Source of the DNA: a virus
Direction: 5' to 3' (one strand)
Virus record (IMG/VR): IMGVR_UViG_3300021963_000062
Location: 33,016-97,015 of that record
Length of the DNA: 64,000 bases
Shown: positions 7,432-43,105 of the stretch, piece by piece
How positions within the stretch are numbered: position 1 is the stretch's first letter
Layout: the number at the start of each line of letters is the position of its first letter
Made by a program: the position numbers and the translations under genes
Notes under the pieces: generated by a model
Databases searched by the model: none
The model's input: the letters and a program-made list of their open reading frames with translations, nothing else
Told to the model about the DNA's origin: nothing

Positions 7432-7638
7432 TTAAAATCCCTTTGATTTTGTTTTGGGTTTCTTTTTATCAAGAACTTCAAACAGATCTAGTTGACCAGT
7501 GGATGACCATTGGAACCAATAAACCTGGGCATCCTCCCAGTTATCAAACTCCATCGTCTTTCCGTTCTTAAAGAATAATTTATAGTCATGTCTATTATAA
7601 GGTAAATCAGAAGTTTGTGCAAAAGTTTTAATTGTCAT
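7432..7638 (-). CDS. hypothetical protein
   Basis: 68-aa ORF, ATGA coupling. Confidence 0.6.
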   Translation of the reverse strand: MTIKTFAQTSDLPYNRHDYKLFFKNGKTMEFDNWEDAQVYWFQWSSTGQLDLFEVLDKKKPKTKSKGF

Positions 7639-8183
7639 AATAAAAGTCCTTTCAAAAGATGAGTAGCCTCAGAGAACCTATCAACATAATGAACTAAGTC
7701 CATATCTTCACTACTAATGAATCCATTATCAAGCATTTCTTCCTCAATCCAATGTTTGAGTGTTCTCCACATTCTACCAACACAGATAATTGGTTTCTTA
7801 TCCATGTGACTGACTTGAACTAACTGATAGATCAATGCCATTTCTAGGAGAGTTCCTACACCACCAGGAGTAACGATAAACGCATCGCACTCTGCGAATG
7901 TCTTAAGTCTGGAGTAGAAAGTCTGGTGTTTTTCATACTCCTGAACATACTTATTAACTCCTTCCTCAAAGGGAAGATAGATTGCTTCTGCAATAGAACA
8001 GAGGTGATCTCCACCGCATCCTTCTATTGCACCCTTATTGGCGGCTTCCATAGTTCCAGGGCCGCCTCCAGTTACTACTGTCCAACCTTGTGCAGAGATA
8101 TTTCTTCCGAGTTTTTCTACTGCCTTATAGAGATCGGATTCCGGATTCGTTCTTGCAGAACCAAAGATTGCTACTTTTTTCAT
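7635..8183 (-). CDS. LOG-family (lysine-decarboxylase-like) nucleotide phosphoribohydrolase
   Basis: FGSAR, TGGGPGTMEAANKGA and PGGVGTLLE (PGGxGTxxE) motifs. Confidence 0.88.
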   Translation of the reverse strand: MKKVAIFGSARTNPESDLYKAVEKLGRNISAQGWTVVTGGGPGTMEAANKGAIEGCGGDHLCSIAEAIYLPFEEGVNKYVQEYEKHQTFYSRLKTFAECDAFIVTPGGVGTLLEMALIYQLVQVSHMDKKPIICVGRMWRTLKHWIEEEMLDNGFISSEDMDLVHYVDRFSEATHLLKGLLL

Positions 8184-8830
8184 TTAAGTTTATAGACGTA
8201 AATGTGTTTACCAGGGGTTTCAATGTACTTTGCATCACCACTTTCCAAAGCATCTTTAACTCTTTGTGCGAAAGGCTTGAGATTTTTATTCCCATACCTA
8301 TCTATATGATAAGTTCGGATACATTTATCGTGATATATCTTACCATCATAATCAATAACACGACCCTTGGCAGTCATGCCACAATGTTCAAAGTTGGATG
8401 CCTTATAGATTGTACCCTGATGATTATGAAACGTGTCTGCGTAGGATACAACAACCTTATATGATGTGTTCTTCTTCAACCACCTCAGAGTTTTTCCAAT
8501 AAAATAACTCTCAGTATTTCTAGGAGTATTATCAATACAACAAAGACGACGTAGTTCTACAACTTGATCCTCAGAATCTGCATACTTTTTCCAAGTATTA
8601 GCCATTCCTAAAGGGCCATAGATCATAGCACCAATAAGATTTTCATTATAAAATAAACCAAAAACATTAGAGATTCTAAGACCATTAACATTAGAAGAAT
8701 AATGCCAAGTTTCAACAAAGTCTCTAACGTATTGAATGGTAGTAGGTTTGACTACAAAATCCTTTACGTTTACATCCCTGCAGTCAAGTTCTTCAAACAG
8801 TAGGGATGATAAAGGATTCATAGTGTTCAT
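8180..8830 (-). CDS. Mom-like GNAT DNA adenine-modification enzyme
   Basis: HYS, ELRRL...PRNTESYFI, VVSYAD...H.GTIYKASNF; start could be 8821, 8830 or 8833. Confidence 0.78.
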   Translation of the reverse strand: MNTMNPLSSLLFEELDCRDVNVKDFVVKPTTIQYVRDFVETWHYSSNVNGLRISNVFGLFYNENLIGAMIYGPLGMANTWKKYADSEDQVVELRRLCCIDNTPRNTESYFIGKTLRWLKKNTSYKVVVSYADTFHNHQGTIYKASNFEHCGMTAKGRVIDYDGKIYHDKCIRTYHIDRYGNKNLKPFAQRVKDALESGDAKYIETPGKHIYVYKLK

Positions 8831-9335
8831 CAAATTTTTTCTTTAGTTCGTCCCTAATGATAATTTTAACATCATTTACATGAGAAAGAAAGTCTTCCCA
8901 TTTATTCTCAACACCAAGATATTTAAAAATAGCTATTCCATGAAGGTGACGAATACCATCCTTCATGTAATCATTCTTTTTTCGATCTTCCCAATATGCA
9001 TAAATAGGAATCTTATTCTTTTCTGCGGCAGACTCCTTCAATTTAACATTGTTAGCCTTTTTAGAAGAAGAATTATCAGTCGCAGGATTCTTTTTTTGTT
9101 CAACAACGATACTAGAGTTCTCCCAATCAGTCTTACATCCAACTCCAAGATGTTTTGCTTCGGGGTCTGGATCCCACTCAGGAATTACTTCTTCAATATA
9201 ATCTCCAATTAATTGGGCAATACGACTGCCAAGAAACACACCACGATTTTCGGAAAGATCCAGTAGAAAATCATAATCAAACTGAGACACATCATAATTT
9301 TGGAGACGAGTCTTCAGGTTGTCAAGAGCAGACAT
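8793..9335 (-). CDS. putative PD-(D/E)xK restriction-like endonuclease (Eco47II-like)
   Basis: IGDYIEE...KTD...VVEQKKNPATDNSSSKK resembles the E..D..ExK..T(D/M)NSSS pattern. Confidence 0.55.
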   Translation of the reverse strand: MSALDNLKTRLQNYDVSQFDYDFLLDLSENRGVFLGSRIAQLIGDYIEEVIPEWDPDPEAKHLGVGCKTDWENSSIVVEQKKNPATDNSSSKKANNVKLKESAAEKNKIPIYAYWEDRKKNDYMKDGIRHLHGIAIFKYLGVENKWEDFLSHVNDVKIIIRDELKKKFDEHYESFIIPTV

Positions 9336-9338
9336 AAT

Positions 9339-9370
9339 AAAAAAAGGAGATCTCTTTAAGAGGTCTCCTT
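9339..9370 (-). terminator. intrinsic terminator-like hairpin
   Basis: AAGGAGACCTCT-TAA-AGAGATCTCCTT followed by a T tract. Confidence 0.6.
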
Positions 9371-9399
9371 ATTATAGTGCGATAGTTCATCCTTGTCAA
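9371..9399 (-). promoter_or_regulatory. sigma70 early promoter
   Basis: TTGACA-17bp-TATAAT, exact consensus. Confidence 0.85.
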
Positions 9400-9493
9400 G
9401 GATTTTTTTTCGTTTTTTTGGTGGTCTATAAAGATTTGGCCAGGTATCTCTGATAATTTCCGCCAGTTTGTATGGTGTATCAGAACTAATCAC

Positions 9494-11013: not shown

Positions 11014-12075
11014 TCAAAGTGCATTACCCCTTGGAAGTACTTCCTCTGGGAACACGAAGTTCTCATGAGGTTGGTCTACTGGTGCCATCCAAGCACGTAA
11101 ACCTTCGTTGAGCAAGATGTTCTTAGTATAGAAAGTCTCAAACTCCGGGTCTTCGGCCGCACGGATTTCTTGTGAAACGAAATCATATGCACGAAGATTA
11201 AGAGCGAGTCCAATGATACCAATAGAACTAGTCCAAAGACCCATAACGGGAACAAAAAGCATGAAAAAGTGAAGCCAACGCTTATTACTAAAAGCGATTC
11301 CAAAAATCTGAGACCAGAATCTGTTAGCCGTGACCATTGAGTAGGTCTCTTCTTCTTGGGTAGGTTCAAATGCCTTGAAGGTATTTGACTGATCACTGTC
11401 TTCATAAAGTGTATTCTCAACTGTTGCACCATGAATAGCACAGAGCAGTGCTCCTCCTAGTATACCAGCAACTCCCATCATATGGAAGGGGTTGAGTGTC
11501 CAGTTATGGAAACCTTGTAGGAATAGGAGGAACCTAAAAATCGCAGCAACACCAAACGACGGCGCAAAGAACCAAGATGATTGTCCGAGTGGATACATGA
11601 GAAACACACTGACAAAAACAGCAATAGGCCCAGAAAACGCGATAGCATTGTACGGTCTAATTCCTACTAAGCGAGCAATTTCAAACTGACGCAACATAAA
11701 ACCTATAAGACTGAAGGCTCCGTGGAGCGCCACAAAAGTCCAGAGTCCCCCAAGTTGGAACCAGCGGACGATATCTCCCTGAGCCTCAGGGCCCCAGAGA
11801 AGAAGAAGAGAATGACCCATAGAATCTGCTGGAGTACTAACTGCCGCAGTAAGAAAGTTTGCGCCCTCAAGATAACTGGATGCAAGGCCATGAGTGTACC
11901 AACTCGTAACGAAAGTTGTCCCAGTAAGCCAACCACCAAGAGCAAGATAAGCTGTGGGAAAAAGAAGTAATCCAGACCAACCAACAAAAACGAAACGATC
12001 TCTCTTAAGCCAGTCGTCAAGGACATCAAACCACCCCCTTTGTTGAATAGGTTGTTTTAGTGCAGATGAAACCAT
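11014..12075 (-). CDS. psbD: photosystem II D2 protein
   Basis: [16 protein letters not shown]...[10 protein letters not shown]. Confidence 0.99.
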
Positions 12076-42699: not shown

Positions 42700-42702
42700 G
42701 AG

Positions 42703-42773
42703 AGCGGGTAACCGGATTTGAACCGGTGAGAACAACTTGGAAGGATGTCATGTTACCGCTACATCATACCCGC
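42703..42773 (-). tRNA. tRNA-Gly(TCC)
   Basis: GCGGGTA acceptor, CTTCCAA loop. Confidence 0.92.
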
Positions 42774-42783
42774 TTATGAGACA

Positions 42784-42812
42784 ATTATAGAGTATTTGAG
42801 TATAATTGTCAA
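42784..42812 (-). promoter_or_regulatory. sigma70 promoter within the tRNA cluster
   Basis: TTGACA-17bp-TATAAT. Confidence 0.85.
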
Positions 42813-43076: not shown

Positions 43077-43105
43077 ATTATACCCGTTGAAGGTTGAATT
43101 GTCAA
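43077..43105 (-). promoter_or_regulatory. sigma70 promoter within the tRNA cluster
   Basis: TTGACA-17bp-TATAAT. Confidence 0.85.

What the first reader, a model, noticed from the sequence alone, without database searches (positions are those of the whole stretch)
7635..9399. Candidate non-methyl restriction-modification system: endonuclease + Mom-like GNAT + LOG
Seen: a perfect TTGACA-17-TATAAT promoter precedes three overlapping genes. The first is a 180-aa protein with E..D..EQK..TDNSSS. It overlaps a Mom-like GNAT by 29-41 nt, and the GNAT is ATGA-coupled to a LOG enzyme. No DNA methyltransferase is adjacent. Established: Eco47II/Sau96I-type enzymes cut GGNCC and normally pair with C5 methyltransferases; Mu Mom hypermodifies adenine N6 in SASNY; LOG releases N6-substituted adenines from nucleotides. 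Inference: the nuclease cuts unmodified host or competitor DNA, Mom protects phage DNA (GGACC contains the S-A-S core), and LOG recycles the modified dAMP. This is the best candidate for an undescribed system in the window.
Basis: partly seen in the sequence, partly recalled or inferred. Interest (0 to 1): 0.85.

Follow-up and report, generated by a model that had tools for sequence, protein, structure and literature searches.

The report
Phage nuclease paired with Mom modifier
A marine T4-like cyanophage carries a mobile two-gene cassette, a restriction-enzyme-like DNA cutter overlapping a Mom-type adenine modifier, that probably works as a cut-and-protect pair without a methylase; the neighbouring LOG gene is not part of it, and this kind of pairing was already predicted for large phages but never tested.

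Summary
A perfect TTGACA-17-TATAAT promoter precedes three co-directional, overlapping minus-strand genes: a 180-aa protein, a Mom-family GNAT and a LOG enzyme.

- **Nuclease:** the 180-aa protein has no direct Pfam hit. It is a confident PD-(D/E)xK fold whose only full-length structural match is EcoO109I, and it is a remote relative of RE_Eco47II. D70, E79-x-K81 and TDNSSS are conserved.
- **Pairing:** of 44 distinct copies elsewhere, 41 are followed at once by Mom with a fixed 38-nt overlap, 2 end at a contig edge, and 1 lacks Mom. Mom often occurs alone. A second, divergent nuclease allele (type B, annotated "type II restriction endonuclease" in phage DSL-LC03) takes the same slot and has been swapped several times on the Mom tree. 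No DNA methyltransferase was found.
- **LOG:** present only in the closest relatives. It also occurs in Mom-less phages, and at this same locus without the cassette. It is not part of the system.
- **Specificity:** GGNCC is unsupported. GGWCC depletion is striking here but is not specific to nuclease carriers.

Mom-plus-REase "momylation" systems were predicted by Iyer et al. (2021), and this scan has noted similar pairs on other DNA. This is a new member of a predicted, untested kind.

The parts
9389..9403 (-). Small hairpin (AUCCUU-GAC-AAGGAU) with the -35 hexamer in and around its loop. This is a promoter-in-stem-loop layout like the early promoter/stem-loop units of T4-type phages.
   Evidence: RNA fold of 9420..9330: MFE -20.5 kcal/mol, z -4.3 against shuffles. 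Similar -35-in-hairpin promoters lie upstream of the nuclease gene in most related loci.
9371..9399 (-). Perfect sigma-70-type promoter, TTGACA-17-TATAAT. It is the presumed early promoter of the cassette.
   Evidence: 12 of 12 matches. 3 perfect matches in 64 kb against 0.03 expected. Promoters scoring 10-12 of 12 at the same place in 26 related loci.
9339..9368 (-). Terminator-like hairpin (GGAGAcCUC-UUAAA-GAGaUCUCC) followed by U7, ending 3 nt before the ATG. The predicted transcription start falls inside its 5' arm, so it would stop only read-through from upstream (inference).
   Evidence: Sequence; fold. The simple terminator scan did not flag it because the stem has one mismatch.
8793..9335 (-). 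Type-A nuclease gene, 180 aa. PD-(D/E)xK fold, remote RE_Eco47II/EcoO109I relative, with conserved D70, E79-x-K81, TDNSSS(86-91) and K98.
   Evidence: - No direct Pfam, PHROG or NCBIfam hit.
- AF2 pLDDT 92.7.
- Foldseek top hit EcoO109I 1wte, prob 1.00, TMq 0.65.
- VIA Z 7.8 over 168 residues.
- hhalign to giant-virus PF09553 proteins: 94.8%, E 5e-8.
- Conserved columns.
8180..8830 (-). Mom-family GNAT, 216 aa from the ATG at 8830. Predicted Gly-tRNA(Gly)-dependent N6-adenine DNA modifier. It overlaps the nuclease gene by 38 nt.
   Evidence: - PF25680, E 1.2e-35.
- phrog_1384, E 2.4e-60.
- Aligns to Mu Mom 8bv8, E 2.7e-10, with the equivalents of H58, Y59, R111, S124, D149 and Y159 kept, but not W48 or R151 (residue list from PMC13219725).
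- 38-nt overlap conserved in type-A and type-B loci.
8184..9437 (.). Extent of the promoter-nuclease-Mom cassette as a presence/absence unit.
   Evidence: Contigs from other runs join 8183 directly to 9438 (DNA run X7, depth 70.5, with 32 other letters between) or to 9465 (RNA-library runs X18 and X20). They skip exactly this block while keeping LOG and the upstream flank.
7635..8183 (-). LOG/TIGR00730 gene, 182 aa, with GGGPGTMEA and PGGVGTLLE motifs intact. It is a neighbour ATGA-coupled to Mom here, but not a conserved part of the pair.
   Evidence: - PF03641, E 5.5e-22.
- TIGR00730, 110.4 bits against a cut-off of 96.35.
- Found with only 3 of 44 distinct nuclease copies.
- Found in the Mom-less phages S-CAM7, S-B68 and S-H34.

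Best explanation
The unit is a mobile, early-expressed two-gene 'cut-and-protect' cassette of T4-like cyanophages: promoter, nuclease, Mom.

- The first gene encodes a small type II restriction-enzyme-like PD-(D/E)xK endonuclease of the Eco47II/EcoO109I lineage.
- The second gene overlaps it by 38 nt, so it is probably translationally coupled. It encodes a Mom-type enzyme that, as shown for phage Mu, would put glycine from Gly-tRNA(Gly) on adenine N6 in double-stranded DNA, giving N6-carbamoylmethyl-adenine at a short degenerate motif.
- Inferred mechanism: packaged and replicating phage DNA carries the Mom mark and resists the nuclease. Unmarked DNA, meaning the host chromosome and/or co-infecting Mom-less phages, is cut. 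Mom takes the place of the methyltransferase of a classical restriction-modification pair.
- Because Mom marks many sites, nuclease alleles (type A here, type B in other phages) can be exchanged under the same protector.

Shown here: the fold, the family links, the conserved catalytic motif, the near-obligate linkage, the conserved overlap, the conserved promoter and the cassette boundaries.

Inferred only: nuclease activity, its site, protection by Mom, and the targets.

LOG is an unrelated cyanophage nucleotide-metabolism gene that the cassette happens to abut in this lineage.
For: 1. Nuclease identity.
- AF2 model pLDDT 92.7 with alpha-beta-beta-beta-alpha-beta order.
- EcoO109I is the top Foldseek hit (prob 1.00, TMq 0.65) and the only full-length VIA match (Z 7.8, 168 aligned). 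Hjc and BsaWI match the core.
- hhalign to PF09553 proteins: 94.8%, E 5e-8. Distant family member P0062 passes the PF09553 cut-off (47.9 bits against 25.9).
- D70, E79 and K81 are conserved.

2. Linkage.
- 27 of 27 IMG/VR loci and 37 of 40 metagenome loci have Mom immediately downstream.
- After removing duplicates, 41 of 44 distinct copies have Mom, 2 are at contig ends, and 1 is an exception.
- One MAG contig also carries the pair.

3. Asymmetry typical of restriction-modification systems. Mom occurs alone in S-SSM7 and about 13 of 58 close Mom loci. The nuclease almost never occurs alone.

4. A second allele.
- Type-B nuclease sits in the same slot in 14 of 58 Mom loci, with the same 38-nt overlap.
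- It is homologous to type A (hhalign 94.4%, E 9e-8, 107 columns).
- It hits RE_EcoO109I weakly (best E 3e-5).
- On the Mom tree the nuclease type changes at least 4 times (A) and at least 2 times (B) across well-supported branches.

5. No C5, N4/N6 or D12 methyltransferase in the own 97 kb, in the complete DSL-LC03 genome, or in four other carrier contigs.

6. A near-consensus sigma-70 promoter directly upstream in relatives and a perfect one here.

7. Mom keeps the Mu residues R111, S124 and D149 that are needed for activity.

8. The same logic was predicted for Mom-REase fusions by Iyer et al. 2021.
Against: - No activity, cleavage site or protection has been shown for any member.
- One intact-looking nuclease copy (L066) has no Mom within 2.1 kb downstream.
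- Mom's R151, essential in Mu, is not conserved in the alignment.
- Mom would also mark host DNA, so discrimination would depend on timing.
- Close relatives of this phage live without the cassette, so it is dispensable.
- Nuclease genes of classical homing families also sit next to or fused to Mom: HNH in a Geobacillus phage and GIY-YIG-HTH in P0182. The link could therefore be about selfish mobility.
- The site-depletion test did not single out nuclease carriers.
Confidence: 0.5

Rival explanations
1. The nuclease is a free-standing homing-type endonuclease, a selfish element. It cuts a rare site at or near the cassette-less allele in co-infecting phages and is copied in by repair, carrying Mom along or using Mom only to shield its own target. 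It is not a general restriction function against host DNA.
For: - The cassette is a clean presence/absence polymorphism between close relatives (joint 8183/9438).
- Nuclease types are swapped repeatedly on the Mom tree.
- HNH and GIY-YIG-HTH nucleases, the classical homing families, also overlap or fuse with Mom genes.
- Earlier scan notes describe Hef-like homing nucleases with Mom domains (these are leads only).
Against: - The protein's only relatives are type II restriction enzyme families with short palindromic sites (Eco47II, EcoO109I).
- It is 180 aa with no extra DNA-binding domain.
- The order nuclease-then-Mom, the 38-nt overlap and the shared C-terminal tail are ancestral to both the A and B alleles. 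This argues for long co-inheritance rather than repeated invasion.
- Within the large Mom clade the slot is always filled.
- The cassette has at least 5 different downstream neighbourhoods among type-A loci, so there is no single fixed target site.
Confidence: 0.2
2. The nuclease has a function unrelated to Mom's mark, such as host DNA breakdown, recombination or repair. The two genes merely travel together in one early promoter-stem-loop cassette of the hyperplastic region. Mom acts only against host restriction enzymes, as in Mu.
For: - Mom alone is common and is an established anti-restriction function.
- GGWCC depletion, present in carriers and in non-carriers such as S-B68, shows that these phages face host restriction.
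- L066 has the nuclease without Mom.
Against: 41 of 42 informative distinct copies keep Mom, with a fixed 38-nt overlap, across 48-95% nuclease identity and in varied neighbourhoods. A second nuclease allele keeps the same arrangement. This is hard to explain by hitch-hiking alone.
Confidence: 0.15
3. The nuclease-fold protein does not cut. It is a DNA-binding helper or regulator of Mom: a site-targeting subunit, or a Com-like control of Mom expression through the overlap.
For: - Type B has E-x-Q-x-K in place of a plain ExK.
- The overlap implies coupled translation.
- Mu controls mom tightly through a separate upstream gene (general knowledge of Mu com/mom).
Against: - D70, E79 and K81 are kept across the type-A family.
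- Mom works alone in Mu and in many phages.
- No sequence feature of a regulator was found.
Confidence: 0.08
4. One reading: a GGNCC-cutting nuclease, Mom protection, and LOG salvaging the modified dAMP.
For: The three genes overlap in this window, including the ATGA coupling. LOG motifs are intact.
Against: - LOG accompanies only 3 of 44 distinct copies.
- LOG occurs in complete genomes without Mom.
- LOG occurs at this locus without the cassette.
- GGSCC sites cannot be protected by an adenine mark, yet they are not depleted.
Confidence: 0.03

Closest known systems
Mom-linked REase 'momylation' systems predicted in T4-like (group 2) jumbo phages and in bacteria (Iyer, Anantharaman, Krishnan, Burroughs, Aravind 2021, Viruses 13:63, PMC7824862)
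   Same: A Mom-family GNAT combined with a restriction-endonuclease-fold domain. The proposed logic is the same: Mom protects phage DNA and the nuclease attacks host or superinfecting DNA.
   Different: - That paper describes fusions. Here there are two separate genes with a fixed 38-nt overlap and their own promoter.
- The nuclease belongs to the Eco47II/EcoO109I lineage and comes in two swappable alleles.
- The carriers are ordinary-sized marine cyanomyoviruses.
- Neither version has been tested experimentally.
R.EcoO109I (RG^GNCCY; PDB 1wte/1wtd) and Pfam RE_Eco47II PF09553 (Eco47II and Sau96I, GGNCC)
   Same: PD-(D/E)xK core plus long N- and C-terminal helices. EcoO109I is the only full-length structural match. 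The G..D..ExK..TDN(A/S)SSKK..N..KL block is shared with PF09553 proteins.
   Different: - 180 aa against 272 aa for EcoO109I.
- No direct HMM hit to PF09553 or PF14511.
- Partner is Mom, not a C5 methyltransferase.
- Recognition site unknown. Plain GGNCC is unlikely.
Phage Mu Mom (PDB 8bv8; Silva et al. 2026, PMC13219725)
   Same: Same Pfam family. The equivalents of H58, Y59, R111, S124, D149 and Y159 are kept. Expected chemistry: glycine from Gly-tRNA(Gly) to adenine N6 in dsDNA at SAS-type motifs.
   Different: - Distant in sequence: phmmer E 2.7e-10 over 160 residues.
- W48 and R151 are not conserved in the alignment.
- No com-like gene. It is preceded by a nuclease gene instead.
- Product and motif are untested for this subfamily.
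Phage T4 modified-cytosine system with EndoII/EndoIV (denA/denB), and chlorovirus restriction-modification systems (general knowledge)
   Same: A virus-encoded nuclease destroys unmodified host DNA while the virus's own DNA is shielded by a virus-made base modification.
   Different: T4 builds hmC at the nucleotide level and replaces every cytosine. Chloroviruses use methyltransferases. Here the shield would be a post-replicative adenine hypermodification.
Free-standing homing endonucleases of T4-type phages (Seg, Mob, Hef)
   Same: A small nuclease gene with its own promoter in a variable region, polymorphic between close relatives. HNH and GIY-YIG examples lie beside or fused to Mom.
   Different: The nuclease family here is type II REase-like, not GIY-YIG or HNH. 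The pairing with Mom is ancestral, and the gene order and overlap are fixed.
LOG / TIGR00730 nucleotide 5'-monophosphate phosphoribohydrolases
   Same: The third gene passes the TIGR00730 cut-off and has the GGGxGxM and PGGxGTxxE motifs.
   Different: It is a cyanophage gene found mostly without Mom. Its substrate in phage infection is unknown.

Membership tests
PD-(D/E)xK nuclease superfamily | alpha-beta-beta-beta-alpha-beta core fold | tested here: met
   AF2 pLDDT 92.7 with H27-54, strands 61-62/71-72/76-81, H89-106 and strand 109-114. Matches: EcoO109I (Foldseek prob 1.00; VIA Z 7.8 over 168 residues), Hjc (Z 6.1) and BsaWI (Z 6.0). The Z values are moderate and the long helices inflate unrelated hits.
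PD-(D/E)xK nuclease superfamily | Acidic residue at the start of strand 2 and (D/E)xK in strand 3 | tested here: met
   D70 and E79-Q-K81 are conserved in 90% or more of rows in A1 and A2, and K81 is invariant. Type B has D85 and E92-G-Q94-x-K96.
Pfam RE_Eco47II (PF09553) | Direct HMM match above the gathering score | tested here: not met
   No hit at E up to 1 for the window protein. Distant relative P0062 scores 47.9 bits against a cut-off of 25.9, and P0053 reaches E 2e-4. The profile-profile comparison gives 94.8%, E 5e-8, 74 columns. It is a remote relative, not a member by Pfam's rule.
Pfam RE_Eco47II (PF09553) | Recognition of GGNCC | not testable with these tools
   Indirect only. GGSCC is not depleted (54 seen, 41 expected). 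GGWCC is strongly depleted (17 seen, 58 expected) in the own genome, but this depletion is not specific to carriers.
Pfam RE_Eco47II (PF09553) | Cognate C5 cytosine methyltransferase nearby | tested here: not met
   PF00145 is absent from the own 97 kb, from the complete DSL-LC03 genome and from four carrier contigs. The control genomes gave hits.
Mom family (PF25680) | HMM match above the gathering score | tested here: met
   123.5 bits against a cut-off of 27.1, covering 184 of 202 profile positions. phrog_1384, E 2.4e-60.
Mom family (PF25680) | Residues needed for Mu Mom activity (R111, S124, D149, R151; also H58, Y59, Y159) | tested here: inconclusive
   In the phmmer alignment to 8bv8, which I read with chain number = native number minus 9 for the delta-10 construct, R111, S124, D149, H58, Y59 and Y159 are kept. 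R151 aligns to F and W48 to Q. The residue list comes from PMC13219725.
Mom family (PF25680) | Gly-tRNA(Gly)-dependent N6-adenine modification of dsDNA | not testable with these tools
The phage does encode a tRNA-Gly(UCC) at 42702-42773, but it lies 33 kb away in an ordinary tRNA cluster.
Type II restriction-modification system (functional class) | Adjacent nuclease and DNA-modifying enzyme that are inherited together | tested here: met
   41 of 44 distinct copies have Mom, 2 are uninformative and 1 is an exception. The 38-nt overlap is fixed.
Type II restriction-modification system (functional class) | The modification blocks the cognate nuclease | not testable with these tools
   Needs expression and cleavage assays.
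Free-standing homing endonuclease | Presence/absence polymorphism at one fixed target site between near-identical genomes | tested here: inconclusive
   A cassette-less form of this locus exists. But the cassette has 16 upstream and 19 downstream flank clusters overall, and the nuclease family is not a classical homing family.
LOG / TIGR00730 | HMM above the cut-off, and the PGGxGTxxE and GGGxGxM motifs | tested here: met
   110.4 bits against a cut-off of 96.35. TPGGVGTLLE and GGGPGTMEA are in the translation.

The most novel reading that the evidence does not exclude
A lytic cyanophage uses a post-replicative adenine hypermodification (N6-carbamoylmethyl-adenine made from Gly-tRNA) as the 'self' mark of a compact type II-like restriction system. 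One broad-motif protector, Mom, lets the phage population exchange nuclease alleles freely. This would give T4-like cyanophages, which have ordinary cytosine DNA, a way to destroy host or rival-phage DNA while sparing their own.
Probability: 0.45. Interest if true: 0.65.

Novelty: new member of a known kind. Interest (0 to 1): 0.45.

Why it matters
- **A testable case.** If the pair works as proposed, it would be the first testable minimal example of restriction-modification without methylation in a virus. It has two small genes (180 and 216 aa), a cultured carrier (Synechococcus phage DSL-LC03) and natural cassette-less sister genomes that can serve as controls.
- **An open question in cyanophage biology.** It could explain how abundant marine cyanomyoviruses tell their own unmodified-cytosine DNA from host DNA during host genome breakdown, or how they exclude competitors.
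- **A possible new enzyme.** It may yield a restriction enzyme whose cognate block is N6-carbamoylmethyl-adenine.
- **A correction to the literature.** A 2025 paper states that mom had not been seen in cyanophages before. In fact it is widespread there, and this stretch alone is held by runs from about 14 metagenome studies.

Tried and rejected
**Searches on the nuclease that found nothing**
- Direct Pfam, PHROG, NCBIfam and PADLOC searches gave no hit.
- tblastn and megablast against 50,697 phage records gave no match.
- PDB sequence searches with the single protein and with a profile gave nothing meaningful.

**Scans that failed or were unavailable**
- Metagenome scans with distant-member alignments failed. 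A2 and A4 had no usable conserved stretch. A5 gave no confirmed relative.
The contexts of the most distant relatives (P0051-P0053, P0057, P0058, P0061, P0062) therefore could not be seen.

**Complex prediction**
- Complex prediction on Mom plus nuclease gave the verdict 'no answer' (score 0.00). It is not used as evidence either way.

**Site-avoidance test for nuclease specificity**
- GGWCC is the most depleted of 512 5-mers in this genome (O/E 0.29).
- Across 21 genomes or contigs the O/E ranges are: type A 0.29-1.01, type B 0.45-0.95, Mom-only 0.61-0.94, neither 0.50-1.05.
- One-sided rank test for carriers against others: p = 0.04, uncorrected and not phylogenetically independent.
- An unbiased 4-6-mer screen gave no strong carrier-specific word.
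- I reject this as evidence for the site. Host GGWCC restriction is the simpler cause.

**Other checks**
- No tRNA-like or Rfam element lies beside Mom. This was a lead from earlier scan notes.
- Metatranscriptome contigs: three RNA-library runs hold pieces about 91-95% identical to LOG, Mom and the nuclease 5' end. Contigs cannot show transcription or a start site, so no expression claim is made.
- Fused forms: only 3 long Mom proteins were found and none contains the type-A domain.
I saw no obvious (L/I)xE site near the N-terminus and did not test it.
- A modification-dependent (type IV) nuclease was rejected on logic. It would cut the DNA marked by its own operon partner.
Full report
**What is there**

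The window comes from a T4-like cyanophage: psbD lies at 11014-12075, and the record is a 97-kb fragment about 47% complete.

On the minus strand, a perfect TTGACA-17-TATAAT promoter (9399-9371) scores 12 of 12. Such perfect matches occur 3 times in the window against 0.03 expected by chance. The -35 box sits in a small hairpin. A second, terminator-like hairpin with U7 lies between the -10 box and the first ATG.

Three genes follow:
- a 180-aa ORF (9335..8793);
- a Mom-like ORF (8830..8180) that overlaps the first;
- a LOG ORF (8183..7635) joined to Mom by ATGA.

The chain then continues into small ORFs.

**The two easy genes**

Mom:
- It matches PF25680 at E 1.2e-35 and phrog_1384 at E 2.4e-60.
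- It aligns to the solved Mu Mom structure 8bv8 at E 2.7e-10.
- Silva et al. 2026 (PMC13219725) show that Mu Mom transfers glycine from Gly-tRNA(Gly) to adenine N6 in dsDNA at SAS motifs. The group then rearranges to N6-carbamoylmethyl-dA. R111, S124, D149 and R151 are needed for activity.
- I read the crystal chain as the delta-10 construct, so chain number = native number minus 9. On that mapping the window protein keeps H58, Y59, R111, S124, D149 and Y159, but not W48 or R151.

LOG:
- It passes TIGR00730 (110.4 bits against a cut-off of 96.35).
- It has both signature motifs.

**The 180-aa protein**

- It has no direct hit in Pfam, PHROGs, NCBIfam, PADLOC, PDB sequences or GenBank phages.
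- An exhaustive HMMER search of 1.84 billion representatives found only 15 relatives. The word-indexed search found 49, all metagenomic and unnamed.
- Alignments show conserved E53, D70, E79-x-K81, TDNSSS and K98.
- One distant relative (P0062) passes the RE_Eco47II cut-off. Its close homologues are a large giant-virus family of PF09553 proteins.
- Profile-profile comparison of the cyanophage family with that family gives 94.8%, E 5e-8 over the catalytic block.
- The AF2 model is confident (pLDDT 92.7) and has the nuclease core order.
- EcoO109I is the top Foldseek hit (prob 1.00, TMq 0.65). It is also the only hit that aligns the whole chain (Z 7.8, 168 residues).

**Co-occurrence**

- In 27 of 27 IMG/VR loci and 37 of 40 metagenome loci the nuclease gene is followed at once by Mom. 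A mis-binned MAG contig shows the same.
- After removing duplicates there are 44 distinct copies: 41 with Mom, 2 at contig ends and 1 exception.
- In the exception, L066, the nuclease tail is replaced. A ParB-motif ORF and a PP-loop ATPase follow, and SHMT lies upstream.
- The overlap is 38 nt in almost every locus.
- A promoter scoring 10-12 of 12 precedes the nuclease gene in the related loci, often with the -35 box inside a hairpin.

**Looking from the Mom side**

The 58 close Mom loci divide as follows:

| Upstream of Mom | Loci |
|---|---|
| Type-A nuclease | 26 |
| Type-B ORF | 14 |
| A second Mom copy | 5 |
| No nuclease | 13 (like S-SSM7) |

- Type B is the gene annotated "type II restriction endonuclease" in the cultured phage DSL-LC03.
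- It is homologous to type A (94.4%, E 9e-8, 107 columns).
- It ends in the same overlap-encoded tail.
- It conserves D85 and E92-G-Q94-x-K96.
- It hits RE_EcoO109I weakly.
- On a Mom tree, the nuclease type changes at least 4 times (A) and at least 2 times (B) across well-supported branches, and the Mom-only clade is nested inside.

The pattern is therefore: the modifier is often alone, the nuclease almost never is, and nuclease alleles are exchanged under one protector. This is what restriction-modification systems look like. It also fits a protector with a short, frequent motif.

No C5, N4/N6 or D12 methyltransferase is present in the own record, in the complete DSL-LC03 genome, or in four other carrier contigs.

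**LOG is not part of it**

- LOG accompanies only the three closest distinct copies.
- LOG homologues sit elsewhere in S-CAM7, S-B68 and S-H34. Those complete genomes have no Mom.
- Contigs from other public runs join base 8183, the first base of the LOG start codon, straight to 9438 or 9465. They skip exactly promoter plus nuclease plus Mom.

So the cassette (8184-9437) is an insertion/deletion unit that happens to abut LOG in this lineage.

**Specificity**

- In this genome GGWCC is the most depleted of all 512 5-mers (17 seen, 57.7 expected). GGSCC is not depleted (54 seen, 41 expected).
- An adenine mark cannot protect GGSCC, so a plain GGNCC cutter is unlikely.
- GGWCC depletion also occurs in S-B68, which has neither gene, and is absent from some type-A carriers. 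The group difference is weak (p = 0.04).
- I attribute the depletion mainly to host restriction and leave the nuclease's site open.

**Prior knowledge**

- Iyer et al. [quoted passage not shown] They predict these to be the restriction component, with momylation protecting phage DNA.
- A 2025 paper on cyanophage S-SCSM2R treats Mom only as anti-restriction and says it had not been seen in cyanophages.
- Notes of this scan on other genomes describe similar nuclease-Mom pairs, including a "swappable nuclease beside Mom" in a marine T4-type phage and Hef-like homing nucleases with Mom domains. I treated them as leads. My own data independently show the swapping.
- I also found an HNH gene overlapping Mom in a Geobacillus phage and a Mom-GIY-YIG-HTH fusion. 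These keep a homing-type reading alive.

**Verdict**

| Reading | Confidence |
|---|---|
| Mobile, early-expressed cut-and-protect cassette, with Mom replacing the methyltransferase of a type II-like pair | about 0.5 |
| Homing-type selfish nuclease | 0.2 |
| Unrelated nuclease hitch-hiking with Mom | 0.15 |
| Non-cutting helper of Mom | 0.08 |
| The three-part LOG model | 0.03 |

- Nothing about activity, site or protection has been shown.
- This is a new member of a predicted but untested kind. It is of moderate interest mainly because it is compact, widespread (runs from about 14 studies hold it) and directly testable.

Noticed in passing
whole 97-kb genome record (window = its bases 33016-97015): GGACC/GGTCC (GGWCC, the AvaII/Eco47I/SinI site) is the single most under-represented of 512 5-mers: 17 seen against 57.7 expected, z -5.4. 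GGGCC/GGCCC is not depleted. The same depletion appears in S-B68 (107 against 214) and several other cyanophage contigs. This points to GGWCC-specific restriction in picocyanobacterial hosts.
   Followed up: yes
L066:1-3386: This is the one nuclease copy without Mom. SHMT abuts the nuclease start. The nuclease C-terminal tail is replaced. It is followed by a 353-aa ORF with a ParB-like DGRQR motif (no Pfam hit) and a PP-loop ATPase (Asn_synthase/QueC-like). It may be a different DNA-modification partner, or a deletion remnant.
   Followed up: partly
L132-L135, L152 (upstream ORF 1295-2029); G001 and G011: Some marine phage contigs carry two Mom genes. These are either tandem and overlapping by 29 nt (a 244-aa Mom paralogue upstream of the usual one) or about 30 kb apart.
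   Followed up: partly
G012 and G013 (IMG/VR contigs of 71 and 98 kb; L187-L192, L200-L202): These Mom-only phage contigs have zero CCAGG/CCTGG (53 and 71 expected) and zero GCAGC/GCTGC (43 and 54 expected). Two 5-mer sites are completely erased.
   Followed up: no
S-SSM7 first 100 kb (L038-L042), G001, G005, DSL-LC03: CATCC/GGATG is among the most depleted 5-mers in several cyanophages (S-SSM7: 99 against 202). S-SSM7 also has no GGSCC at all (0 against 9.4).
   Followed up: no
window 42702-42773 and 42784-42812, 43077-43105: A tRNA cluster of 10 tRNAs includes tRNA-Gly(UCC). [quoted passage not shown]
   Followed up: partly
L054:1014-2196 (Geobacillus phage vB_GthS_PK3.6); protein P0182: Nucleases of other folds also sit on Mom. 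An HNH endonuclease gene overlaps the Mom gene by 59 nt in a Geobacillus phage. A 468-aa metagenomic protein is a Mom-GIY-YIG-HTH fusion.
   Followed up: partly
L056:2710-3362: In one close relative (nuclease 93% identical) the Mom frame is broken by a 1-nt deletion while the nuclease is intact. This could be an assembly error or a real Mom pseudogene next to a live nuclease.
   Followed up: partly
L138:7-1302: In two Mom-only contigs the gene upstream of Mom is a 431-aa protein with an N6_N4 DNA methylase domain. Two adenine/cytosine modifiers therefore lie side by side.
   Followed up: no
protein P0047: This is a chimeric relative. Its C-terminal 70 residues are typical of the type-A nuclease, but its N-terminal 100 residues, including the catalytic block, are unrelated and Cys-rich.
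   Followed up: no
window 7432-7638: A 68-aa ORF starts 4 nt inside the LOG stop, and a 105-aa ORF follows. The co-directional gene chain therefore does not end with LOG.
   Followed up: no
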